A stretch of DNA of 64,000 nt from an uncultured Gammaproteobacteria bacterium (GTDB taxonomy: Bacteria; Patescibacteriota; Microgenomatia; UBA1406; GWC2-37-13): NCBI GenBank assembly GCA_964433155.1, contig CAYSQE010000003.1:12061-76060 (forward strand). Direction: 5' to 3'. A model generated the notes under the pieces. The model did no database searches, had not been told where the DNA came from, and saw nothing but the letters and a program-made list of their open reading frames with translations. A program made the position numbers and the translations under genes. This document shows positions 3,075 to 63,834 of the stretch, in pieces. How positions within the stretch are numbered: the stretch's first letter is position 1; the number at the start of each line of letters is the position of its first letter.

Positions 3075-5033
<1,959 letters not shown>

Positions 5034-10305: not shown

Positions 10306-12213
10306 CTATCTTCGAAACAACTTCAAAAACGCCTCTTTGGGAACTTCTACCCGGCCGATCATTTTCATCTTCTTTTTTCCCTCTTTTTGCTTATCCAATA
10401 ATTTATCTTTTCGAGTTCGATCACCTCCGTAGAGTTTTTTGGTGACATCCTTGCGAAATGGTGCTATTCGCTCTGAGGCTATGATTTTTCCCTTATATTG
10501 TGCTTGGATTTTTACTTCATACATTTGACGAGGAATTAGTTCACCCAGCCTCTTAACCAAAGATTGACCTTTTTCTTGAGCTCTGGCTTTTGCTACAACT
10601 TCTGAAAATTCCTCTATTGGATCTCCATTGATAAGGACCATTAACTTATCGGCATCAACTACTCTATATTCAAGAAACTCCCAGTCAAGTGATGCATAAC
10701 CGGAGCTCACGCTTTTTAGCTTATCGTAAAAGTCTGAAATCATCTCTGACATCGGCATTTCATAGTAAAGTACGATTTGATTTTTATTATCCATCGTTAT
10801 AAATTTAGCTCGATAACTTTGAGACAGCTGCATAACATCACCAAGATACAGTTCTGGTGTAACAATCATGATCTTAACGAAAGGCTCCATAAATTCAGTT
10901 TTAGCTTCTATTCGATTTATCCGGTATTCTACCTGAGGAGGCGTCAATACTAAACTTAAATTAAACTCTCTTTCTAACCTTTCTCTTGCAACATCTGCGT
11001 GCAGTAATCCTAAGAAACCTACTCTAAATCCAGCACCTAAAGCCTGGCTGTAAACCGCAGAAAACTCCAGCGAAGAATCGCTCAGATAAAGCTTTTCAAG
11101 TGCTTTCTTCAAATTTAAATAATCATGCGTATCAGTTGGAAATACTGAGGCAAATATCATAGGCTTAATTCGTTTATATCCAGGCAGCGAATAGGTGTTT
11201 CTATTTCTAACAATTTCGTTAATAATTGTATCTCCGACGCGGACCTTGTGAATGTCTTTAAGATTCGTAACTACATAGCCAATATCTCCCTCCGCCAATA
11301 AATCTGTAGGTTTTAGGTCAGGTGTAAAATGTCCGACCTCTTTAATCTCAAATATTTCGTCATTTATGGCTAATGCAACATGTAGGTTTTTTTTAAATTC
11401 TCCGGAAAAAACACGAACAAAAGCGATCACTCCTCGATGTGAATCATAATAGGAGTCGAAAATTAGCGATTGCAATGATGTAGAGACAAAATTTTTTCGA
11501 AAGTCAGTTGTTTGAGCAAAGGAGCGAGGAAGCGACCCCTCGGATTCCGAGGATGAGCGAGGAGCGACTGGTTCCGACGAACGTCGGAATGTGAGTTGAT
11601 CTTGAGAAAAAATTTTTGTCGATATATTATAAGGAGCCGGAATTCTCTTAACAACAGCCTTCAATAAATTTTCTACATTTTCTCCTGTTTTTGCTGAAAT
11701 CTCAAAAACATCTACTTCATTTATCCCCAAAAAATCAACCAACTGTTTTTTTGCTTTCAAAACATCTGCACTGGGAAGATCTATCTTATTAATAGCTGGA
11801 ATTATTAGCAAATTTTTTTCCAGCGCTTTATAAGCATTAGAAATGGTTTGAGCTTGTATGCCTTGAGTTGCGTCAACTAACAGAATTACTCCCTCGACAC
11901 AAGCCAATGTCCTATCAACTTCGTAGGAGAAATCTACGTGTCCTGGTGTATCTATGAGATTCAAAATATATTTTGAATCTTCAATTTGAAATTTTAAATT
12001 TGAAATTTTAAATTTAAATTCCATTCTTACCGGAGCAAGTTTTATAGTAATGCCTCTTTCTCTTGAGATTGGATTTCTGTCTAATAATTGCTCTTCATGC
12101 GCTCCTTTTACAACCACTCCTGTCAACTCTAAAAAGCGATCAGCTAACGTAGATTTACCATGATCCACATGAGCAATAATGGCAAAGTTCCTTATGTTCG
12201 ATGTTTTTAACAT
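10306..12213 (-). CDS. lepA: Elongation factor 4 (LepA) carrying two in-frame insertions
   Basis: IRNFAIIAHVDHGKSTL, DTPGHVDF and NKID GTPase motifs, plus a LepA C-terminal domain. Extra segments are present at residues about 64-79 and about 198-243. Confidence 0.95.
   Translation of the reverse strand: MLKTSNIRNFAIIAHVDHGKSTLADRFLELTGVVVKGAHEEQLLDRNPISRERGITIKLAPVRMEFKFKISNLKFQIEDSKYILNLIDTPGHVDFSYEVDRTLACVEGVILLVDATQGIQAQTISNAYKALEKNLLIIPAINKIDLPSADVLKAKKQLVDFLGINEVDVFEISAKTGENVENLLKAVVKRIPAPYNISTKIFSQDQLTFRRSSEPVAPRSSSESEGSLPRSFAQTTDFRKNFVSTSLQSLIFDSYYDSHRGVIAFVRVFSGEFKKNLHVALAINDEIFEIKEVGHFTPDLKPTDLLAEGDIGYVVTNLKDIHKVRVGDTIINEIVRNRNTYSLPGYKRIKPMIFASVFPTDTHDYLNLKKALEKLYLSDSSLEFSAVYSQALGAGFRVGFLGLLHADVARERLEREFNLSLVLTPPQVEYRINRIEAKTEFMEPFVKIMIVTPELYLGDVMQLSQSYRAKFITMDNKNQIVLYYEMPMSEMISDFYDKLKSVSSGYASLDWEFLEYRVVDADKLMVLINGDPIEEFSEVVAKARAQEKGQSLVKRLGELIPRQMYEVKIQAQYKGKIIASERIAPFRKDVTKKLYGGDRTRKDKLLDKQKEGKKKMKMIGRVEVPKEAFLKLFRR
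11485..11620. repeat. In-frame palindromic insertion element with terminal inverted repeats (RPE-like) inside lepA
   Basis: TIRs GACAAAATTTTTTC (11485-11498) and GAAAAAATTTTTGTC (11606-11620). GC-rich core with palindromes CCTCGGAtTCCGAGG (11538-11552) and TTCCGACGaaCGTCGGAA (11572-11589). A related sequence lies at 51135-51204. Confidence 0.7.
11983..12017. repeat. Heptamer-periodic repeat (AATTTGA/AATTTTA, 5 units) inside lepA
   Basis: aatttga aatttta aatttga aatttta aatttaa, read directly. It encodes the extra FKFKISNLKFQ segment. Confidence 0.7.
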
Positions 12214-48972: not shown

Positions 48973-50271
48973 ATGATCCCCAGGTTGATTAATTTCGCAA
49001 AACGACCGACAAGTGTTAATGTCATTATCAATACCTTCGGAAACTACCTAAATGTATTTTTTACAGCTCTTTTCGCTCTCATTCTTGTCCGCATTTTGAC
49101 TCCTCCACAATATGGAGTTCTAAGCGTGCTTCTAGGTATCGCATATGTTCTAGCAAACATTCTCGACTTTGGCACAACAGCTACAATTTATTCTTATCTA
49201 CCAAATTTATATGAAAAAAAGACATACGAGCTTTATCGATTTATCAAAAGTACTTTCTATTATCAATCCATTTTTTCTTTTTTTGTTATCGCAGTTTTGT
49301 TAATATCTTTTCCCTTCTTAGATAAAGTTTTTTTCAAAACAGATGCTCCCTGGTCAGAGCTTGCTTTAACTTCGATCTCAGTTTTATTTTTAATCTGGCA
49401 AAATTTTCTGCAAAATATACTTTTTGCCGCAAAAAAATTTGTCAAGACAAATGTATATTTGAATATCGCCAACATCATTAAAACGCTTATTGTTTTTCTT
49501 ATGATTTATTTGAAAATTATCACAGTAGGATCGGTGATTTTTGTCTTTGGAATTTTAGGACCCGTCATATTTTTTTTCTTGCTTTTTTTAGAGAAGAAAG
49601 ATCTTGTCTCGATTTTTCTTAAGTCCGAAGTTAAACGAAGCGAATTTAGGTTTGGCTACACTTTGACATATTTCTTAGCTTCTCAATTTTTTAACCTGGG
49701 ACTTCGCATGGATCTTTTTCTTCTATCTTATTTCAGATCTAAAACCGAGGTAGGATATTATGGACTTTCACAAAAAATTATTTTAACGATTATTACTACC
49801 ATAGTTAGTATCACGCAAGTCTTATCGCCCTCATTTTCTAAGATAACCAGAAAATCAGAAGCGTTATCTCAACTTAAGACTGGATTCATGTATCTTTTAC
49901 TCCCTTCGGCACTCTTTTTTATTCTTTTTTTCACACCAAAGGAAGTCTATGATCTTTTTTTTACCGACAAATTTGTACAAACTGCACCTATAACACGGGC
50001 CCTAAGCTTACCTTTTGTGCTATATGCTCTCGGCAGCCTTCCTGTCTTATTTCTTTTATATACGGTCAAAAAACCCGTTTATATTTTAATCTCAAATGTT
50101 GTTTTCTTTATCATTTTAACCCTAGGATGTTATTTTTTAATTCCGAAGATGGGCGTCTTTGGCCCACCATACGCTATAGCTTTAGCCCTCATCGTTGCAA
50201 CAGGTATTCAAATAGTCGCCAGCATCAAGGAGTTTAAGAAAATGTTCTCACCCCGCTCCCAGACTTCATAA
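48973..50271 (+). CDS. MOP/Wzx-type polysaccharide flippase-like membrane protein
   Basis: About 12 TM helices. ATG 48973 is chosen because the ORF-track GTG 48871 would overlap the gmd start. Confidence 0.55.
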   Translation: MIPRLINFAKRPTSVNVIINTFGNYLNVFFTALFALILVRILTPPQYGVLSVLLGIAYVLANILDFGTTATIYSYLPNLYEKKTYELYRFIKSTFYYQSIFSFFVIAVLLISFPFLDKVFFKTDAPWSELALTSISVLFLIWQNFLQNILFAAKKFVKTNVYLNIANIIKTLIVFLMIYLKIITVGSVIFVFGILGPVIFFFLLFLEKKDLVSIFLKSEVKRSEFRFGYTLTYFLASQFFNLGLRMDLFLLSYFRSKTEVGYYGLSQKIILTIITTIVSITQVLSPSFSKITRKSEALSQLKTGFMYLLLPSALFFILFFTPKEVYDLFFTDKFVQTAPITRALSLPFVLYALGSLPVLFLLYTVKKPVYILISNVVFFIILTLGCYFLIPKMGVFGPPYAIALALIVATGIQIVASIKEFKKMFSPRSQTS

Positions 50272-51626
50272 TATATCCCCCTAAAATTTCTTGTTTTTTT
50301 CTTATTATAATTACTTTGTCGCAAAATCTTCGCATAGTCCAAACCATAAATTTCTGAGGTATAAGGAATAATAATTATTTCTCGATACTTTAATTTGGTT
50401 AAATCCAAAGCTCGTAAATCTCCAAGATTCAAATCGCTTCGATAATATTGAATTGGGTCAGAAGAGGAATAGATCATATAAATTTTCTTATCTGAAGGAA
50501 GGCTGTTTGCCAAGGACTTCCAATCCTCACGATGAAAGCCAGGAAATAAGAGATATAACAAAGAAAAACTGATAAAACCAAAAAATATGATTAATCGATA
50601 AATCGTATTTTTTTGTGCAAATGAAATCAAGACTGAAATAAGCGGAATAAGATAAATAAACCTAAAATATTGAAGTAGGGGAGTAAAAAAAGAAAATAAA
50701 ATGCCAAAACCCATTGAACCGATGATAAAAAATAAGATAGACCTCTGTTTCAATCCGCCTTTTAGGACAAAAAACCAGACGAATGCTGTCCAAATCCCAG
50801 CAACAGCCCAATACAGCAATTTGGGCTGAAAGCTGATTCGTCCAAAGGCAAATTTTAACGGGATGAGGAAAAGATTTTTTAGATTCGTAGTACCTAAAAC
50901 TTGTGTCCAATTTGGTACCAAGAGTAACTGTTGTTGAGCATTGACAAACTGCCGATAGACTAATGGCAGAAGAACTAATAACGAAGAAGAAAGCATTAAA
51001 AATGAAACAAAAAAAAATCTATATTGCTTTTTGTAAAGTAAATACAAAAACATAGGAATAATTAAAAAAATCGAGCCGTAAAATGTTAAAAAAGCCAACG
51101 AAATGAAGATGTTAAAAAATAAAATAGGTGAGGAGCCAAAATTTTTCGAGACTTTCTGTTTGAGGAGCGGAAGCGACGAGTTAAGTCGAGATAAAATTTC
51201 TGGCGACAAACCTAAATAATAATAGAGTGCGACAGTTAAAAAAAATGTAGCCATCATATACATTCTCGCCTCCTGTGAATAATAAATAATCAATGGATTA
51301 AAAAGAAAAAATGCCACAGCCCAAAAACTAAACTTTTCATTTTTTATTTTTTTACCAATCAGGTAGACAATCCAACCCGTAAGAAGTGAAAAAATAATTG
51401 ATGGAAATCGCAGGGCAATTTCAGAATAACCAAATAAATTTGTCCAAAATTTCATAGATAGATAATAGAGTGGGGGATGAAAATCATGAGGAGAGAATTT
51501 TGTGGCGACATCTAAAAAACTGTACTGTTGAACCACTCGTGCTGTGGTTGCCTCATCTAACCATAAAGATTGATTTAAAGATATAAGACGAATTAAAAAA
51601 GCGAAGACCAATAGAAGATATATCAT
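50208..51626 (-). CDS. GT-C fold glycosyltransferase (ArnT/PMT_2-like)
   Basis: First-loop motif SLWLDEATTA, then more than 10 TM helices. Start moved to ATG 51626 because the ORF-track N-terminus (to 51683) is the translated tRNA-Gly gene. Confidence 0.6.
   Translation of the reverse strand: MIYLLLVFAFLIRLISLNQSLWLDEATTARVVQQYSFLDVATKFSPHDFHPPLYYLSMKFWTNLFGYSEIALRFPSIIFSLLTGWIVYLIGKKIKNEKFSFWAVAFFLFNPLIIYYSQEARMYMMATFFLTVALYYYLGLSPEILSRLNSSLPLLKQKVSKNFGSSPILFFNIFISLAFLTFYGSIFLIIPMFLYLLYKKQYRFFFVSFLMLSSSLLVLLPLVYRQFVNAQQQLLLVPNWTQVLGTTNLKNLFLIPLKFAFGRISFQPKLLYWAVAGIWTAFVWFFVLKGGLKQRSILFFIIGSMGFGILFSFFTPLLQYFRFIYLIPLISVLISFAQKNTIYRLIIFFGFISFSLLYLLFPGFHREDWKSLANSLPSDKKIYMIYSSSDPIQYYRSDLNLGDLRALDLTKLKYREIIIIPYTSEIYGLDYAKILRQSNYNKKKTRNFRGIYYEVWERGENIFLNSLMLATI
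51135..51204. repeat. Second, shorter copy of the in-frame palindromic element (inside the GT-C gene)
   Basis: GCCAAAATTTTTCGAGACTTTCTGTTTGAGGAGCGGAAGCGAC aligns with lepA 11487-11536 (AAAATTTTTTCGAAAGTCAGTTGTTTGAGCAAAGGAGCGAGGAAGCGAC). The right end AAAATTTCTGGC is inverted relative to the left end. Confidence 0.6.
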
Positions 51627-51633
51627 AAATTTG

Positions 51634-51705
51634 AGCGGTGGAGGGGATTTGAACCCCTGACCTTCTCCTTGGAAGGGAGACATTCTACCGCTGAACTACC
51701 ACCGC
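51634..51705 (-). tRNA. tRNA-Gly (anticodon UCC)
   Basis: Reverse complement GCGGTGG-TA-GTTC-AGCGGTA-GAAT-G-TCTCC-CTTCCAA-GGAGA-AGGTC-AGGGG-TTCAAAT-CCCCT-CCACCGC-T folds as a cloverleaf. Anticodon loop is CT-TCC-AA. No encoded CCA. Confidence 0.9.
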
Positions 51706-58968: not shown

Positions 58969-59379
58969 TTATGAAGCTGGTCGTTTAAAATTATCCCAAG
59001 CTTTTGAAAGATTATACAACTGTCTGCCGGAAATGTCGTATGTTTTAATTAGATTATCAATTTGCTCTATATTAATGCTGTAAAGATCTTTACATTGCTC
59101 TAGGCTTACGATTGTTTCGTTACACTCTCCCATTGCGTCATCTAAGTATTTTTGAAATCCAGCTTTTTGATGACGTTTACCGTAGCCTTCAGCAATTAAT
59201 CTTGGAATTGACTTACATGATCTACTAAGTTGATCTTTCAAATCATACTTTTCACTTGCTGGAAGTAATGGAATAATTTTTTTCATCACAATTAACATTG
59301 CTTTATATGTATTTTGAAAAACGTTTAAATCTCTAAATGACGTAATTGGTTTTTTATTTATTTGATTATCCATACTCAT
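58969..59379 (-). CDS. Four-helix-bundle protein (23S rRNA intervening-sequence protein / Avd-like family)
   Basis: FRDLNVFQNTYKAMLIVMKKI...EKYDLKDQLSRSCKSIPRLIAEGYGKRHQKAGFQKYLDDAMGECNETIVSLEQC matches the family pattern. Confidence 0.7.
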   Translation of the reverse strand: MSMDNQINKKPITSFRDLNVFQNTYKAMLIVMKKIIPLLPASEKYDLKDQLSRSCKSIPRLIAEGYGKRHQKAGFQKYLDDAMGECNETIVSLEQCKDLYSINIEQIDNLIKTYDISGRQLYNLSKAWDNFKRPAS

Positions 59380-59409: not shown

Positions 59410-60318
59410 TCATAACCATTTACCCCTTAACCTATGTAATGGATGCCAGTTAATCCTTCTCTCCGCCAAATATATCCCTCCAAAAACAAGCACTGAACCG
59501 AAGAAAAAATGAATCGTAGGATACTCACTAAGTAGAGGAGCTGCAATAAGTACCGCGACTACCGGATCGATATAGGTAAAAAGTCCAACCTCCTGCGTAT
59601 CAATCTTTGAAATACCATAATTAAACAAAAAATACGCCAAAGCAGAAGATAAAAATACCCCAAATAATATGCCGGTCCAACCTCTGATATCAAGGCTTGA
59701 AAAAGACCACGATTGTGTCTCAAACAAAAACATAGGAAAGAAACTTACGGCTCCTATTAAAAAACTGATAAAAGTTACCATGGCTGAACCTACCTTAGCG
59801 ATTACATTTTTTTGTAACAGTGGGTGAAGTACTGCTCCTAAGGTAGCCAGCAAAAAGAAAAGGTTTCCTTGCAATTCTCCTAAAGCCAAAGTCTCTCCAT
59901 CAAATATGACGGGGGATAGAATTATGAGTAAAACCCCAAGCAGTGCAATAAGCATTCCTATAAAAACCTTCGAATGGGCTTTTTCCTTTAAAAAAAGTAT
60001 GGACAAAAAATACAAGAAAACCGGGCCAGAAGAAGCAATTATTGGCGCGTTGATACTCTGAGATCTTTGTAAGCCCCAAAAGAAAAATGTGATATTGACG
60101 CTGATCCCAAAAAAAGCCCCCAAAATCAGTTCTAACCATTCTTTACGTGATAGTTTTACTTCCCATTTTTTAATTAAAGGAATAAATAGAGATGCAGCAA
60201 AGAAGAAACGAATAAAGGCTAGTGTGAATGGAGGAATGTTCTCAAGAGCAAACTTGAAAATAGGCGAGGCTGCACCCCAGATAATATTTGCTATGACGAG
60301 AGCCAAAATTGGATTCAT
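59410..60318 (-). CDS. EamA/DMT-superfamily transporter
   Basis: 10 TM helices in two halves. Stop/start overlaps the upstream GT2. Confidence 0.7.
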   Translation of the reverse strand: MNPILALVIANIIWGAASPIFKFALENIPPFTLAFIRFFFAASLFIPLIKKWEVKLSRKEWLELILGAFFGISVNITFFFWGLQRSQSINAPIIASSGPVFLYFLSILFLKEKAHSKVFIGMLIALLGVLLIILSPVIFDGETLALGELQGNLFFLLATLGAVLHPLLQKNVIAKVGSAMVTFISFLIGAVSFFPMFLFETQSWSFSSLDIRGWTGILFGVFLSSALAYFLFNYGISKIDTQEVGLFTYIDPVVAVLIAAPLLSEYPTIHFFFGSVLVFGGIYLAERRINWHPLHRLRGKWL

Positions 60319-61244
60319 TTTTTCTTTTTGTTTAAATAGACAATAAGCTCACCAATTATTCCTGTGGTGATAATCTGTATTCCTACAATAAGAAGAACTA
60401 CGCCTAATAAAAGAGCTGGCCTTCGATAAAGTAAAACTCCAAAAAATAATCTTTCAATTGTCAAATAAAGGCTTACTAAAAAACCTGCTACAAACAAAGC
60501 GCCCCCAACGATTCCAAAAAAATGAAGGGGTCTTTCGGAAAATTTATAAATAAAATAGGCAGTTAATGTGTCCAATAAACCAACAAAAACTTTTTCAATT
60601 CCATACTTTGATTTTCCGTGTAACCTCGGGTTGTTCTTTACCGGTATTTCTGTCACTCTATATCCATTGTAATACACCGCAAGTGGAAAGAAACGGAAAT
60701 TATTGCCATAAAAAGTAAAGTCAGACAAAACCTCTCTCCTAAAGGCTTTAAAACCACAATTTATATCGCTGAACGGAGAATGTAAAAAAATCTGCAAAAA
60801 ATATCGTGCTAATGTAGAGTAAATTTTTATTATGGTGTTATCTTTTCTACCGATTCTAATCCCGTTGACGAAATCATATCCAGCTTCAATTTTCTTCACG
60901 AATTTAGGCAAGTCTTCGGGATCATCCTGCAAATCTGCATCCATAAATATGATTACATCACCGTTTGCTTCCTGTAAACCGGAAAATAATGCCTGTCCCT
61001 TTCCTAATTTTTTTTTATGATGAATTATCTTAATTCTTGAATTTCTGAGGTCAAACATTGATATAGAACCATCCGTGGAACCATCATTTACAAGAATAAT
61101 TTCGTACTCTTGTTTTAGTTTATTGCACTGATGAACTAATTGACCTGCCTCGCCGGCAGGCGGGTTAATCAAAGCGGGTAAATTGTCTTTTTCGTTATAA
61201 AAAGGAATAATAATTGAAATCATATATTTGTACGGACAGAACAT
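60315..61244 (-). CDS. Polyprenol-phosphate glycosyltransferase (GT2, GtrB/ArnC/DPM1-like) with two C-terminal TM helices
   Basis: ISIIIPFYNE...YEIILVNDGSTDGS...FMDADLQDDPEDL, plus a hydrophobic C-terminus. Alternative start ATG 61223. Confidence 0.8.
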   Translation of the reverse strand: MFCPYKYMISIIIPFYNEKDNLPALINPPAGEAGQLVHQCNKLKQEYEIILVNDGSTDGSISMFDLRNSRIKIIHHKKKLGKGQALFSGLQEANGDVIIFMDADLQDDPEDLPKFVKKIEAGYDFVNGIRIGRKDNTIIKIYSTLARYFLQIFLHSPFSDINCGFKAFRREVLSDFTFYGNNFRFFPLAVYYNGYRVTEIPVKNNPRLHGKSKYGIEKVFVGLLDTLTAYFIYKFSERPLHFFGIVGGALFVAGFLVSLYLTIERLFFGVLLYRRPALLLGVVLLIVGIQIITTGIIGELIVYLNKKKK

Positions 61245-61254
61245 TGTTCTGTCG

Positions 61255-62802
61255 CTACATTATAATTCTTTTATATACTTCGAAATTTTTTTTCTGATAT
61301 ATTAATTCAAAATTAGTATCTTTTTTTAAATTTTCGTAAACAGGAATCATCTCTTCTTTTTGATAATACGTATAGATTTCGTTAAGTCTTACGATGACGT
61401 AGTCTGCTAAATTATAGTAACGCGAGAAAGTATAAAAATAACGCCTCGAAGTAAAAAATGGCGAGAGTTGGCCGGTCGACGAGATCTTCAGACTCTCATC
61501 TTTTAGTGTCTTTGCCCAAAAGGCTGTATCTTTTGCCTCCACCTGAGGATACTTCATGGGGTGAATATTTTGATTTAAAGCACCAGGCAAGGGCCCCATC
61601 CAATAAGCAAACACTATCGATGATATCAAAATGTAAAGTCCCAAAGGCAAATAAAATGATTTTCGCTCAAAAAATGAATTATTTAATATTTTATATAGAT
61701 TCCTAGCAGCGTAAATCGCAGAAATGAATACAAATGGAGTAATGACAGCAGCATAGTGATAATAAATATTACGCATACTTGGATCTTTAGAGAGGATATT
61801 AATGGCCAACTCCGGGAATGAGATCAAAAACGCTAAAGGTGAGAGGAGAGAAAGAAAGCCTAAAGGACCAAGGAGTGTCAAATAATATGTAAGGGATTGC
61901 TGGCTTAAAAATATTTTTAATATACTATATGGTCGAGTTATGATACCTATAATGATTCCTATAGGTGAATTGCCGAAATCCCCATATTTTCCAATTGCAA
62001 AATGTTCACTCCCTCGAGTCAGCGGGATAATGTAAAAGATAGAAAGTATGAACCAGATTATACTCATAGCCACTATAACTGCTAGGAATATTTTTTGCCT
62101 CTTAGACACTTTATTTGGCAAGCGATTCTCATTTAGGTTATTTTGACTTCGCCAAAAAGTCCAAAATCCATACAGTCCAAAGATCATTGTTGTCAATACG
62201 ACCTGCTCTTTAGAAATTATCGATAAGGCAAAAAATAATAAACTCAACCAATATCGTTTAACTAACCAGAAATAATACATAAAAAGAAGTGTTGTCGTGG
62301 CCAAAGTTACCGCATGAAAATCAAAGATATTTCCCTTCTGTAAAGGCGGATAAAGAAGATATGATAGAGAAAAGATGAGAGATAAAAAATAAGAGTTAGG
62401 AGTCCTTCCCAATACGTGTAATGCTATTTTATAGACAGCAAGCGCTCCGAGCGCAACCACGACAACTTGAATAACTAGAAGTGTTTCGACGCCTGAATGA
62501 ATAAAGTAGAACGGTGAAATGAGTGCTAGTAATATATCGTTATGTATAGCCATTCGCTTAATCTGATCAGGACCATATGGATCTGTAAGTTCTAGGATTC
62601 TTGATAAGTCGCCAGCTTGAAGTCCTTTATAGGTATTAAAAACAGTCTGTTGCATTATCCCTAAGTCAAAGTAAGAAGCGTAAAGCGTTTTATAACGAAG
62701 AATTGTAAAGTAGGAAAAATAAACAATATAGGATAAGATGAAAACCCAAAGCAATAGTTGGTATTTATACTTACCTATAATGGTAAAGATATGTAAAAAC
62801 AT
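61255..62802 (-). CDS. DUF2079-like polytopic membrane protein (GT-C-like)
   Basis: YFDLGIMQQTVFNT near the N-terminus and about 13 TM helices, as in DUF2079 proteins. Confidence 0.55.
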   Translation of the reverse strand: MFLHIFTIIGKYKYQLLLWVFILSYIVYFSYFTILRYKTLYASYFDLGIMQQTVFNTYKGLQAGDLSRILELTDPYGPDQIKRMAIHNDILLALISPFYFIHSGVETLLVIQVVVVALGALAVYKIALHVLGRTPNSYFLSLIFSLSYLLYPPLQKGNIFDFHAVTLATTTLLFMYYFWLVKRYWLSLLFFALSIISKEQVVLTTMIFGLYGFWTFWRSQNNLNENRLPNKVSKRQKIFLAVIVAMSIIWFILSIFYIIPLTRGSEHFAIGKYGDFGNSPIGIIIGIITRPYSILKIFLSQQSLTYYLTLLGPLGFLSLLSPLAFLISFPELAINILSKDPSMRNIYYHYAAVITPFVFISAIYAARNLYKILNNSFFERKSFYLPLGLYILISSIVFAYWMGPLPGALNQNIHPMKYPQVEAKDTAFWAKTLKDESLKISSTGQLSPFFTSRRYFYTFSRYYNLADYVIVRLNEIYTYYQKEEMIPVYENLKKDTNFELIYQKKNFEVYKRIIM

Positions 62803-62850: not shown

Positions 62851-62880
62851 ATGTAGCTATTTAACCATGTAGCTATTTTA
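62849..62880. repeat. Direct 16-mer repeat CCATGTAGCTATTTAA / CCATGTAGCTATTTTA
   Basis: Read directly. The second copy contains the xer stop codon. Confidence 0.7.
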
Positions 62881-63834
62881 TTTATTCCCCGAGTGAAACT
62901 TCTCGTGTATCTCTTTCAATCTCGTATTTGTGACATGTGTATAGATCTGAGTAGTCGAAATGTTTTTGTGACCCAACATTTCTTGTACAGACCGTAAATC
63001 TGCTCCATGCGACAAAAGATCGGTCGCGTATGAATGTCTGAGAACGTGGGGGCCTATACGAAATAAAATTCCAGCCTTTTTTCTGTACTTATCAATTAGC
63101 CGTTCTATAGACCGTGCAGACAATCTTTGTTTCTCATCGGTCAGTCCTTCTTGACCTTTCGGTCCCGAGTATCTAATAAAAAGAGCTCTATATGGATCTT
63201 TGCGATTTTGCAGATACTTAGTCAGCCACTCTTTAGCTTTTTTTGAAAGAAACACAACGCGAGCCTTACCTCCCTTGCCAATTACCCCAAACTCGCCAGA
63301 ATCCATATTGACCTGCTCACGGTTTAAGGAAACAAGCTCAGAGACACGAAGACCTGTGGAGAATAAAACTTCCAATATTGTTCTATCACGTATGCCTAAT
63401 ATTTCTTTCGTATCGACTACTTTAAAAAGCTTATCTAATTCTTCTTCTTGCAAAAACTTGATATTCCTGTCTCGTTGTTTACCAAGTTCGATCATCTCGG
63501 GAGAGATTGTATTTATTCTTTGCTTGATTAGGTATCTGAAAAATGATCGAAGAGCAACCAAAAAATAATTTTGCGTCTGACGTTTTAGTTCTCCCTTGAA
63601 TTTATTTTTATACTGGTGAGAAAGAAATAGTCGAAAATCTCTTATTATGTCTTCTGTTATATCTTCAACTTTAAAGTCTCCATTTTGAACTTTGAACTTT
63701 GAACTTTGAACTTTTAATAGCCAGTCTTGGAAGAAGTGAAGATAATAACCATACATGCGAACAGTTTTTAAGGATAGATTGCGATCGAGTTCAGAGTATT
63801 CCAAAAATCTTAAGATTGCTTCTTTTATACCCAT
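62878..63834 (-). CDS. Tyrosine site-specific recombinase, XerC/XerD family
   Basis: Catalytic region ARSIERLI...HVLRHSYATDLLSHGADLRSVQEMLGHKNISTTQIYTHV (R..HxxR..Y). The N-terminal SAM-like domain carries an extra KVQSSKFKVQNGDFKVED segment. Confidence 0.85.
   Translation of the reverse strand: MGIKEAILRFLEYSELDRNLSLKTVRMYGYYLHFFQDWLLKVQSSKFKVQNGDFKVEDITEDIIRDFRLFLSHQYKNKFKGELKRQTQNYFLVALRSFFRYLIKQRINTISPEMIELGKQRDRNIKFLQEEELDKLFKVVDTKEILGIRDRTILEVLFSTGLRVSELVSLNREQVNMDSGEFGVIGKGGKARVVFLSKKAKEWLTKYLQNRKDPYRALFIRYSGPKGQEGLTDEKQRLSARSIERLIDKYRKKAGILFRIGPHVLRHSYATDLLSHGADLRSVQEMLGHKNISTTQIYTHVTNTRLKEIHEKFHSGNK
63684..63711. repeat. Perfect heptamer tandem repeat (TTTGAAC x4) inside the xer coding region
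   Basis: tttgaac tttgaac tttgaac tttgaac, read directly. Confidence 0.8.

What the first reader, a model, noticed from the sequence alone, without database searches (positions are those of the whole stretch)
51135..51204. Second, shorter copy of the same element in-frame in an unrelated GT-C glycosyltransferase gene
51135-51177 (GCCAAAATTTTTCGAGACTTTCTGTTTGAGGAGCGGAAGCGAC) aligns with lepA 11487-11536 (AAAATTTTTTCGAAAGTCAGTTGTTTGAGCAAAGGAGCGAGGAAGCGAC) at about 80% identity, in the same orientation. Its right end (GATAAAATTTCTGGC) is inverted relative to its left end. Both host genes are on the minus strand. The encoded peptides are alignable: SLPLLKQKVSKNFG versus SLPRSFAQTTDFRKNFV. A possible degenerate third copy lies at about 62087-62148 in the DUF2079 gene (…AGACACTTTATTTGGCAAGCGA…, peptide NRLPNKVSKRQKIF). 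Shared DNA in loops of unrelated proteins argues for a mobile or duplicative repeat family rather than convergent protein evolution.
Basis: seen in the sequence. Interest (0 to 1): 0.65.

Follow-up and report, generated by a model that had tools for sequence, protein, structure and literature searches.

The report
In-frame palindromic repeats in CPR genes
The 70-bp stretch inside the membrane glycosyltransferase gene is a real copy of a small palindromic, probably mobile, DNA element; nearly identical copies sit in frame in unrelated housekeeping genes of related Candidate Phyla Radiation (CPR) bacteria, much like the "protein-coding palindromes" of Rickettsia.

Summary
Window 51135-51204 (- strand) is a 70-bp imperfect palindrome, in frame in a GT-C/PMT_2 glycosyltransferase gene. 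Window 11485-11620 is a 136-bp relative, in frame in lepA. Their pairwise similarity alone is marginal. However, a covariance model built only from long-type copies finds every short-type copy end to end, including the GT-C copy (E=0.021).

The short element recurs at 94-99% DNA identity in lepA of two other Roizmanbacteria and in a glutamate dehydrogenase gene. The lepA DNA flanking it is only 60-69% identical. The long element recurs in another lepA, at two sites of a thioredoxin reductase gene, and once between genes.

Thirteen of 28 stem pairs show compensatory changes, so the fold is conserved and the peptide is not. Structure models put both window inserts in low-confidence regions between well-predicted parts of the host proteins. 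Orthologues lack them or carry other palindromes at the same site.

The proposed third copy (62087-62148) is not supported.

Best reading: a new family of MITE-like or Rickettsia-palindromic-element-like selfish elements in CPR bacteria, translated as tolerated loops. How they move is unknown. No transposase lies in the window, and a TC dinucleotide flanks all nine genic copies. This is a new member of a known kind, and moderately interesting.

The parts
51135..51204 (-). Short-type palindromic element, 70 bp, in frame in the GT-C gene. It encodes roughly PEILSRLNSSLPLLKQKVSKNFG. Terminal inverted repeats are GCCAGAAATTTTATC / GAAAAATTTTGGC on the coding strand.
   Evidence: Sequence. Fold z -3.1 on the + strand. 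nhmmer E about 1e-27 to the short family. Long-family covariance model hit E=0.021. DNA 94-97% identical to copies in lepA and gdh of other genomes.
51133..51134 (-). TC dinucleotide (GA on the + strand) directly flanking the element on its 3' side in coding orientation. Candidate target-site duplication.
   Evidence: The same TC flank is present on both sides of all 9 genic copies examined.
51205..51206 (-). TC dinucleotide directly flanking the element on its 5' side in coding orientation.
50208..51626 (-). Host gene: GT-C-fold membrane glycosyltransferase (Pfam PMT_2), 472 aa from the M at 51626. The longer ORF running to 51683 overlaps tRNA-Gly.
   Evidence: The Pfam match breaks at residue 137, just before the insert (residues 141-165). 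The AlphaFold model has mean pLDDT 92; the 10-residue blocks covering 141-170 average 68, 57 and 71, and the insert forms two short helices between long helices 123-139 and 166-181. Representative orthologues lack it.
11485..11620 (-). Long-type palindromic element, 136 bp, in frame in lepA. It encodes TKIFSQDQLTFRRSSEPVAPRSSSESEGSLPRSFAQTTDFRKNFV. Terminal inverted repeats are GACAAAAATTTTTTC / GAAAAAATTTTGTC.
   Evidence: fold z -4.6 and -5.0; 153.6 bits.
11572..11589 (-). Internal hairpin 1 of the long element (TTCCGAC...GTCGGAA).
   Evidence: Compensatory variants in other copies: TCCCGAC/GTCGGGA, TCCCCGCC/GGCGGGA and ATCCCGC/GCGGGAC.
11538..11552 (-). Internal hairpin 2 of the long element (CCTCGG AAT CCGAGG).
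   Evidence: Variant CCTCGT CAG ACGAGG in the trxB copies. Pair 85-89 of alignment A6 reads GC in 3 copies and UA in 3.
11483..11484 (-). TC flank (GA on the + strand) on the 3' side of the lepA element.
11621..11622 (-). TC flank on the 5' side of the lepA element.
10306..12213 (-). Host gene lepA (elongation factor 4), 635 aa. The insert occupies residues 198-244, in the linker between the G domain and domain II.
   Evidence: Pfam GTP_EFTU ends at residue 192 and EF-G_D2 starts at 248. AlphaFold pLDDT is below 50 for residues 199-244. Orthologues are 565-663 aa, with no insert or other inserts in the G-domain/domain II linker.

Best explanation
The GT-C insert and the lepA insert are two members, one short and one long, of a single family of small non-coding imperfect palindromes. 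These elements have AT-rich terminal inverted repeats and GC-rich internal hairpins. They behave as selfish, MITE-like or Rickettsia-palindromic-element-like DNA in Roizmanbacteria/Microgenomates (CPR).

Proposed mechanism:
- The element is copied or moved into new sites. This is inferred, probably by an enzyme supplied from elsewhere, and possibly with duplication of a TC dinucleotide.
- Insertions into genes survive only where three conditions hold: the length keeps the reading frame, the element lies in its stop-free frame, and the extra 24-46 residues fall in a tolerated surface loop or inter-domain linker. There it is translated as a disordered or helical excursion.
- The short type is most simply an internal-deletion derivative of the long type.

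Shown: family membership, in-frame genic and intergenic copies, DNA-level conservation far above that of the host genes, conservation of base pairing, and low-confidence placement between well-predicted parts of the two window host proteins.

Inferred: actual transposition, the TC duplication, translation of the insert, and neutrality of the insert for the host.
For: - Family membership: nhmmer and covariance-model results.
- Unrelated hosts. The short type is in GT-C (window), lepA (L001/L007, L003) and glutamate dehydrogenase (L006 plus ten JGI metagenome contigs). The long type is in lepA (window, L005), trxB site 1 (L016, L013), trxB site 2 (L013, L008) and the dnaJ-efp spacer (L021). Host identities were confirmed by Pfam.
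- Element identity far exceeds flank identity: 98.7% against 60-69% for L001/L003, and 80% against 60-63% for window/L005. Similarity drops within about 10 nt of the element ends.
- Base pairing is conserved. On seven long copies 94.4% of cells are paired and 13 of 28 pairs changed on both sides, against 0-2 in slid controls; 0 of 500 shuffles reach the observed score.
- Presence and absence vary. Many LepA and GT-C orthologues lack any insert. trxB site 2 is filled in L013 and L008, reduced to a 24-bp right end in L011, and absent in L016, L009, L012 and L014.
- All nine genic copies use the same stop-free frame, although other frames are also open.
- TC flanks both ends in 9 of 9 genic copies, and element plus TC is a multiple of 3 in 8 of 9.
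- Both window inserts lie in low-confidence regions of the models.
Against: - No transposase domain occurs in any of the 61 window ORFs; there is only a XerC/D-type recombinase.
- Copy number looks low. There are two related copies in 64 kb, and a single exact 20-mer match in a complete 1.23-Mb Roizmanbacteria genome.
- No clean empty site in a near-identical strain was found, so the TC duplication and the exact boundaries are unproven. The intergenic copy in L021 lacks TC flanks.
- Compensatory changes in palindromes can also arise without selection, through intrastrand template switching.
- Translation of the insert is not demonstrated.
Confidence: 0.78

Rival explanations
1. Patch-wise homologous recombination or gene conversion. 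In this view the elements do not transpose. Alleles of loop regions that happen to contain palindromes are exchanged between co-occurring Microgenomates strains, and the rare jump between genes is an illegitimate recombination event.
For: - Closely related hot-spring strains, whose TrxB N-terminal ~90 residues are 88-98% identical, carry three or four unrelated palindromic inserts at exactly the same trxB site. The host residues next to the insert also differ between these alleles.
- The lepA linker is occupied by at least five insert families across the clade.
- Copy number is low.
- No transposase is present in the window.
Against: - Identity collapses within about 10 nt outside the element in L001 against L003, and in the lepA copies against the gdh copy. 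This is not expected if larger gene patches are exchanged.
- The same element is found in four unrelated genes and one spacer.
- The termini are conserved inverted repeats with the same TC flanks in every genic copy.
Confidence: 0.12
2. A functional nucleic-acid structure. The conserved hairpin would be selected for a role in the mRNA or DNA of the host gene, for example a translational pause at a domain boundary, mRNA stability, a protein-binding site, or a recoding or bypass signal. The peptide would be a by-product.
For: - Covariation is strong.
- Folding z-scores are -3.1 to -5.0.
- The lepA insert lies exactly between two domains.
- DNA conservation exceeds that of the host gene.
Against: - The same structure occurs at unrelated positions: a membrane-protein loop, beta-hairpin turns of TrxB, and an intergenic spacer.
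- Most orthologues do without it.
- Unrelated palindromes replace it at the same site.
- All genic copies are open in frame, so bypass is not needed.
- No Rfam family matches.
Confidence: 0.06
3. A selected peptide module: a linker or interaction motif that is conserved because the protein needs it, and that spreads as a small domain.
For: The encoded peptide is recognisably conserved (ILSRLNSSLxLLKQKVSKNF). The same frame is used in all nine genic copies although other frames are open.
Against: - Hairpin-preserving double substitutions change the peptide freely.
- Synonymous sites are as conserved as the rest, with 94-99% DNA identity.
- An intergenic copy exists.
- Model confidence in the inserts is low.
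- The host proteins have unrelated functions and locations.
Confidence: 0.03
4. Chance resemblance of two AT-rich, low-complexity loop-coding stretches.
For: The pairwise score is only 3 points above the next-best window tile. nhmmer E-values between the two families are 0.03-1.2.
Against: - The two families are each other's best hits, and the matches are collinear.
- All sub-threshold hits in 330 kb are cross-family.
- The long-only covariance model recovers all short copies end to end.
- Each family has independent near-identical copies elsewhere.
Confidence: 0.01

Closest known systems
Rickettsia palindromic elements (RPEs; 'protein-coding palindromes', Ogata et al. 2000/2002, as summarised in PMC10969869 and PMC3733652)
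   Same: - Palindromic repeats of about 100-150 bp with several families.
- Found both between genes and in frame inside unrelated housekeeping genes.
- Each family encodes a conserved peptide.
- The inserts appear compatible with the host protein fold.
- The host has a small, AT-rich, reduced genome.
- The mobilising enzyme is unknown.
   Different: - The phylum is unrelated (CPR/Patescibacteria, not Alphaproteobacteria), and no sequence relationship is claimed.
- Apparent copy number is much lower.
- Copies are near-identical across genomes whose LepA proteins are only about 65% identical, which suggests recent or horizontal spread rather than ancient insertions.
- TC flanks are present.
- The same loop is occupied by unrelated palindromes in near-identical strains.
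Bacterial MITEs that make in-frame fusions (e.g. Coxiella QMITE1, intragenic ERIC, Correia/NEMIS; PMC5896051, PMC10969869, PMC2229807)
   Same: - Size of 70-150 bp.
- Terminal inverted repeats.
- No coding capacity for a transposase.
- Short flanking direct repeat.
- Occasional in-frame insertion.
- Internal-deletion derivatives.
   Different: - No cognate insertion sequence with the same ends has been found.
- A putative TC duplication is not the usual TA of IS630-type MITEs.
- In the copies seen here, genic in-frame insertion is the rule (nine genic, one intergenic) rather than the exception.
REP/BIME elements mobilised by RAYT (Y1) transposases, including intragenic GTAG/CGTC REPs (PMC3733652)
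   Same: GC-rich stem-loops with compensatory changes. Some copies lie inside coding regions. They may be recognised as single-stranded hairpins.
   Different: - No conserved GTAG or CGTC tag across copies.
- The elements are longer and composite, with an outer AT-rich stem and two inner hairpins.
- They are not high-copy.
- No RAYT gene lies in the window.
GC-cluster or 'byp' mobile hairpins in AT-rich yeast mitochondrial genes (recalled from the literature, not tested here)
   Same: GC-rich palindromic mini-elements that invade coding sequences of an AT-rich compact genome.
   Different: Byp elements interrupt the frame and are skipped by the ribosome. Here every genic copy is open and in frame, so ordinary translation suffices.

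Membership tests
Rickettsia palindromic elements (RPE) | Imperfect palindrome of roughly 100-150 bp that folds into a long hairpin | tested here: met
   The long copy is 136 bp with fold z -4.6 and -5.0; the short copy is 70 bp with z -3.1. The consensus structure has 28 pairs, 94% of cells paired.
Rickettsia palindromic elements (RPE) | In-frame insertion in unrelated protein-coding genes, with a family-specific conserved peptide | tested here: met
   Hosts are GT-C, LepA, GDH and TrxB (two sites). All nine genic copies use the same frame.
Rickettsia palindromic elements (RPE) | Copies also present in intergenic DNA | tested here: met
   L021 935-1085 lies between dnaJ and efp.
Rickettsia palindromic elements (RPE) | Insert located at the surface of the host protein and compatible with its fold | tested here: inconclusive
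   The models support tolerance, but exposure was not measured. LepA residues 199-244 have pLDDT below 50, between the G domain and domain II. The 10-residue blocks covering GT-C residues 141-170 average pLDDT 57-71, in a helical excursion between two long helices of a model with mean pLDDT 92. No solvent accessibility or membrane topology was computed.
Rickettsia palindromic elements (RPE) | Sequence homology to RPE-1 to RPE-10, and occurrence in Rickettsiales | not tested
   No RPE consensus library was available. The host is Roizmanbacteria/Microgenomates. The element is therefore filed as 'works like an RPE', not as a member of the RPE sequence families.
MITE (miniature inverted-repeat transposable element) | Terminal inverted repeats, small size, no transposase ORF | tested here: met
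   Terminal inverted repeats of about 12-15 bp: G(A/C)CA(A/G)AAATTTT... / ...AAAATTTTG(G/T)C. Size 70-139 bp.
MITE (miniature inverted-repeat transposable element) | Target-site duplication flanking each copy | tested here: inconclusive
   TC lies on both sides in 9 of 9 genic copies. No true empty site was recovered, because L011 keeps a 24-bp remnant, and the intergenic L021 copy lacks the TC.
MITE (miniature inverted-repeat transposable element) | Multiple dispersed copies per genome | tested here: inconclusive
   There are two related copies in the 64-kb window and three (two long, one short) in the 4.6-kb L013. Only one exact 20-mer match occurs in a complete 1.23-Mb genome. No whole genome could be scanned with the profile.
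MITE (miniature inverted-repeat transposable element) | A cognate autonomous insertion sequence or transposase sharing the same terminal repeats | tested here: not met
   No transposase Pfam domain occurs in the 61 window ORFs. The terminal-repeat motif occurs only at the two elements. The rest of the genome could not be tested.
REP/BIME (RAYT-associated) | Stem-loop of 20-40 bp tagged by a conserved GTAG or CGTC tetranucleotide | tested here: not met
   Checked by eye only. The copies aligned in A6 share no GTAG or CGTC tag at a fixed position; CGTC appears in some hairpin-1 variants but not in L013 or L021.
REP/BIME (RAYT-associated) | Associated Y1 (RAYT) transposase gene; high-copy extragenic distribution | tested here: not met
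   No Y1_Tnp domain occurs in the window. The copies seen are mostly genic and few.
Translational bypass / recoding elements (byp-like) | The insert breaks the reading frame or contains stop codons, so it must be skipped | tested here: not met
   The host-gene frame is open in all nine genic copies. Under the TC-flank boundaries, element plus TC is a multiple of 3 in 8 of 9 copies.

The most novel reading that the evidence does not exclude
CPR/Microgenomates may carry a horizontally circulating pool of unrelated palindromic 'loop cassettes'. These would repeatedly target, replace and nest into the same few permissive loops of essential genes (the LepA linker and the TrxB beta-turns). They might do so by a hairpin- or palindrome-directed insertion mechanism that needs no element-encoded transposase. 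The result would be strain-level hypervariability in housekeeping proteins. This would be a more dynamic and mechanistically different process than the 'ancient insertions' picture of Rickettsia RPEs.
Probability: 0.18. Interest if true: 0.8.

Novelty: new member of a known kind. Interest (0 to 1): 0.58.

Why it matters
In-frame 'protein-coding palindromes' have been treated largely as a peculiarity of Rickettsia. Finding the same behaviour in CPR bacteria shows that it recurs in compact, AT-rich genomes. It does so with several families, near-identical copies across distant genomes, and strain-level turnover in lepA, trxB, gdh and a glycosyltransferase.

There are practical consequences:
- The inserts inflate and diversify CPR protein lengths.
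- They break domain-model alignments; the PMT_2 match stops at the insert.
- They could mislead orthology calls and phylogenies built on LepA-like markers.

The hot-spring population contigs offer a natural system for catching insertion, replacement and decay of such elements. Full and remnant trxB site-2 alleles and three different fillings of trxB site 1 are already present.

Tried and rejected
- Third copy in DUF2079 (62087-62148): rejected. It gives no profile or covariance-model hit and the Pfam alignment is continuous. The 24-nt inverted repeat found there (I4) is ordinary for AT-rich DNA.
- Exact look-up of the window's LepA and GT-C proteins: not on record, so the source genome could not be extended.
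A tandem peptide gave 28 word-sharing candidates, none at E<=1. A profile of long peptides gave 152 candidates and only one hit, possibly because the peptides are short and S-rich. That one hit did lead to the intergenic copy L021.
- Genome and metagenome scans with exact 20- to 23-mers: these found only the lepA and gdh loci. Exact matching under-samples diverged copies.
- Viral contigs, phage records, plasmid records and Rfam: no matches.
- Transposase in the window: none.
- Other copies in the window: the terminal-repeat motif search and a scan for GC-rich islands found only the two elements and one unrelated mini-palindrome.
- Intein, intron and bypass readings: set aside. The elements are 70-139 bp, open in frame and non-coding for any enzyme.
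- L019 17347-17405 (covariance-model E=0.16): inspected and judged to be AT-rich noise.
Full report
**What is at the coordinates**

The window is 35% GC. Its LepA is closest to Candidatus Roizmanbacteria (Microgenomates, CPR) proteins, at 63-70% identity.

On the + strand, 51135-51204 reads GCCAAAATTTTTCGAGACTTTCTGTTTGAGGAGCGGAAGCGACGAGTTAAGTCGAGATAAAATTTCTGGC. It is 70 bp and 43% GC, and its two ends are inverted repeats. It lies in frame in a - strand ORF that matches Pfam PMT_2, a GT-C-fold glycosyltransferase family. The first 19 codons of the listed ORF overlap tRNA-Gly(tcc) at 51633-51705, so the real start is probably the M at 51626.

The lepA element is 11485-11620. It is 136 bp and 47% GC, ends in GACAAAATTTTTTC.../...GAAAAAATTTTTGTC, and has two internal GC-rich hairpins. 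Both segments fold better than their shuffles:
- lepA element: z -4.6 on the + strand and -5.0 on the - strand.
- GT-C element: z -3.1 on the + strand and -1.3 on the - strand.

**Is the similarity more than chance?**

The direct pairwise test gives a score of 31 against 17.0 +/- 2.6 in 2000 dinucleotide shuffles, with none as high. The next-best 200-nt tile of the window scores 28, so this test alone is weak. Independent copies from elsewhere settle the question.
- A profile built only from short-type copies has the lepA element as its best other hit in the window (E=0.026; next 2.1).
- A profile built only from long-type copies has the two halves of the GT-C element as its best other hits. 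They are collinear and on the same strand (E=0.19 and 1.2).
- Over about 330 kb of window plus loci, all five sub-threshold hits of the short profile are long-type copies.
- Covariance model R1, built from seven long-type copies only, recovers every short-type copy across model positions 1-148 at E=0.002-0.12. This includes window 51129-51209(-), at 23.4 bits and E=0.021. Almost nothing else is recovered.

The alignment suggests that the short type is the long type minus about 68 internal bases.

The proposed third copy at 62087-62148 never appears in these searches. The DUF2079 protein also matches its Pfam model in one continuous stretch. I reject it.

**Copies elsewhere**

Aligning 120 LepA homologues shows lengths of 565-663 aa. 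In the region examined, the length variation lies in the linker between the G domain and domain II. Many have no insert there.
- P0014 carries the window's long-type insert.
- P0077 and P0096 carry SSEILSRLNSSLPLLKQKVSKNF, which is the peptide of the window's GT-C insert.

Their DNA shows the short element at 95-96% identity over 78 nt to the window copy (96-97% over the 68-nt core).

An exact 20-mer scan of one genome per species found the element in only two records. One is the 1.23-Mb Roizmanbacteria genome, where it lies in lepA. The other is a Microgenomates MAG, where it lies in frame in a Glu/Leu/Phe/Val dehydrogenase gene just before the GxGxxG strand. Ten JGI metagenome contigs carry that same gdh locus.

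On those contigs the long type appears in frame in the neighbouring thioredoxin-reductase-like gene (Pyr_redox_2):
- at site 1 in L016 and L013;
- at site 2 in L013 and L008.

The one hit of a peptide-profile search led to an intergenic long-type copy between dnaJ and efp (L021). Together this makes six gene sites in four unrelated host proteins, plus one spacer.

**DNA conservation, not protein conservation**

Between L001 and L003 the short element is 77/78 identical, while 450 nt of lepA on either side is 60% and 69% identical. Between the window and L005 the long element is 80% identical, against 60-63% for the flanks. Similarity falls off within about 10 nt of the element ends, although the lepA and gdh copies also share a short downstream 'SFNN...SNN' module.

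On the seven long copies:
- 94.4% of pair cells are Watson-Crick or G-U pairs.
- 13 of 28 pairs show changes on both sides, against 0-2 when the 3' partner is slid by 1-3 columns.
- No shuffle out of 500 reaches the observed covariation.

Hairpin 1 exists in four mutually compensated versions: TTCCGAC/GTCGGAA, TCCCGAC/GTCGGGA, TCCCCGCC/GGCGGGA and ATCCCGC/GCGGGAC. These change the peptide from FRRSSE to SRLSSG to SPPQSAG. Convergent protein evolution and a selected peptide module are therefore excluded in practice.

One caution applies. Compensatory change in quasi-palindromes can also come from intrastrand template switching, not only from selection. This rests on established knowledge and was not tested here.

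**Position in the host proteins**

- LepA: Pfam GTP_EFTU ends at residue 192 and EF-G_D2 begins at 248. The insert is residues 198-244. AlphaFold gives pLDDT below 50 for exactly 199-244.
- GT-C: the model is confident (mean pLDDT 92). The 10-residue blocks covering 141-170 average 57-71, and the insert (residues 141-165) forms two short helices between long helices 123-139 and 166-181. The PMT_2 match stops at residue 137. Among the 50 closest representatives, the closest (56% identity) lacks the insert. Most have a much shorter loop there, and a few carry other inserts.

**Ends and possible mechanism**

All nine genic copies are bounded by TC on both sides of the inverted repeats: TC|G(A/C)CA...TTTTG(N)C|TC. 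Element plus one TC is a multiple of three in eight of nine. This looks like a 2-bp target duplication.

I could not find a clean empty site. At trxB site 2, L011 keeps the right-hand 24 bp of the element. This looks like a microhomology deletion, the kind of event that could also have produced the short type. The diverged intergenic copy has longer inverted repeats and no TC.

All nine genic copies use one frame and one orientation, although one other frame is open in every short copy and further frames are open in some copies of both types. With only six independent sites this is suggestive, not decisive.

No transposase domain is present in any of the 61 window ORFs. The only recombinase is a XerC/D-like protein at 62878-63834. 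The terminal-repeat motif occurs nowhere else in the window. Nothing similar is present in viral contigs, phage records, plasmid records or Rfam.

**Wider phenomenon**

The same loops attract other palindromes.

In the hot-spring population the TrxB N-terminal ~90 residues are 88-98% identical between contigs. Even so, trxB site 1 holds three different fillings:
- the long type;
- an unrelated GC-rich palindrome (TGPVVPFPPASAPLRIGG...), once with a further AT-rich palindrome nested in its centre;
- a third element (IISPASSGSVVIGQSQSE...).

Across Roizmanbacteria the LepA linker holds at least five recognisable insert families. Two that I fetched are palindromes. One of these has a second, intergenic copy in another genome.

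**Comparison with what is known**

The behaviour matches Rickettsia palindromic elements as described in PMC10969869 and PMC3733652, and intragenic MITEs such as those of Coxiella (PMC5896051).

I do not claim membership of the RPE sequence families, because that was not tested and the phylum is different. Three MITE criteria are unmet or open:
- the cognate insertion sequence was not found;
- the target duplication is inconclusive;
- copy number is inconclusive.

The REP/RAYT criteria are not met.

Searches of the held literature found no description of such elements in CPR/Patescibacteria. This is absence from that library only.

**Verdict**

It is a new family of a known kind of selfish element in a new lineage. 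It has unusually dynamic site occupancy and an unknown mobilisation mechanism.

Noticed in passing
window 61140-61172 (- strand, GT2 gene 60315-61244): A GC-rich mini-palindrome, CCGCCTGCCGGCGAGGCAGGTC, encodes 'NPPAGEAGQ' in frame in an otherwise AT-rich glycosyltransferase gene. It may be another, tiny, protein-coding palindrome.
   Followed up: no
L008-L016, trxB site 1 (e.g. L015 2175-2272, L014 1519-1629, L011 4385-4548): Strains whose TrxB N-terminal ~90 residues are 88-98% identical carry three unrelated palindromic inserts at the same codon position. In L011 one of them has a further palindrome nested in its centre.
   Followed up: partly
L011 around 4900-4930 (trxB site 2) compared with L013 1288-1436: L011 retains only the right-hand 24 bp of the long element (ATCCACTTACGGCGAAAATTTGCC). 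This looks like a microhomology-mediated internal deletion, that is, element decay rather than an empty site.
   Followed up: partly
LepA orthologues P0001-P0120; L018 10643-10711, L019 10592-10675 and 6043-6086: The linker between the LepA G domain and domain II in Roizmanbacteria holds at least five different insert families. The L018 mini-palindrome (AAATTTTTTGACGG...CCGCAAAAAATTT) has an 89%-identical intergenic copy between the AdoHcyase and SAM-synthetase genes in L019.
   Followed up: partly
L001 10642-10690, L003 7119-7160, L006 813-860: A second short module encoding 'S(S/P)SFNN...(K/Q)(Q/S)(Y/S)NN' follows the short element in the lepA and gdh copies. It also occurs alone in other LepA linkers (P0081, P0101, P0108). 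It could be part of a composite element or a separate repeat.
   Followed up: no
window 51633-51705 and 50208-51683: The longest ORF of the GT-C gene runs 19 codons into tRNA-Gly(tcc) on the same strand. Its 'GFKSPPP' is the tRNA T-arm translated, so the true start is probably the M at 51626.
   Followed up: yes
window 58969-59379 (- strand): A free-standing gene matches Pfam 23S_rRNA_IVP (23S rRNA intervening-sequence protein) and sits inside a glycan-biosynthesis cluster. A similar 122-aa ORF lies between trxB and gdh in L016 (1994-2362), by eye and not scanned.
   Followed up: no
P0129 (GT-C representative), loop aligned to window GT-C residues ~140-170: This orthologue carries a different insert containing 'WIPAFAGMT...AGMT', which looks like a translated GC-rich repeat. 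The GT-C loop is therefore also a recurrent insertion site.
   Followed up: no
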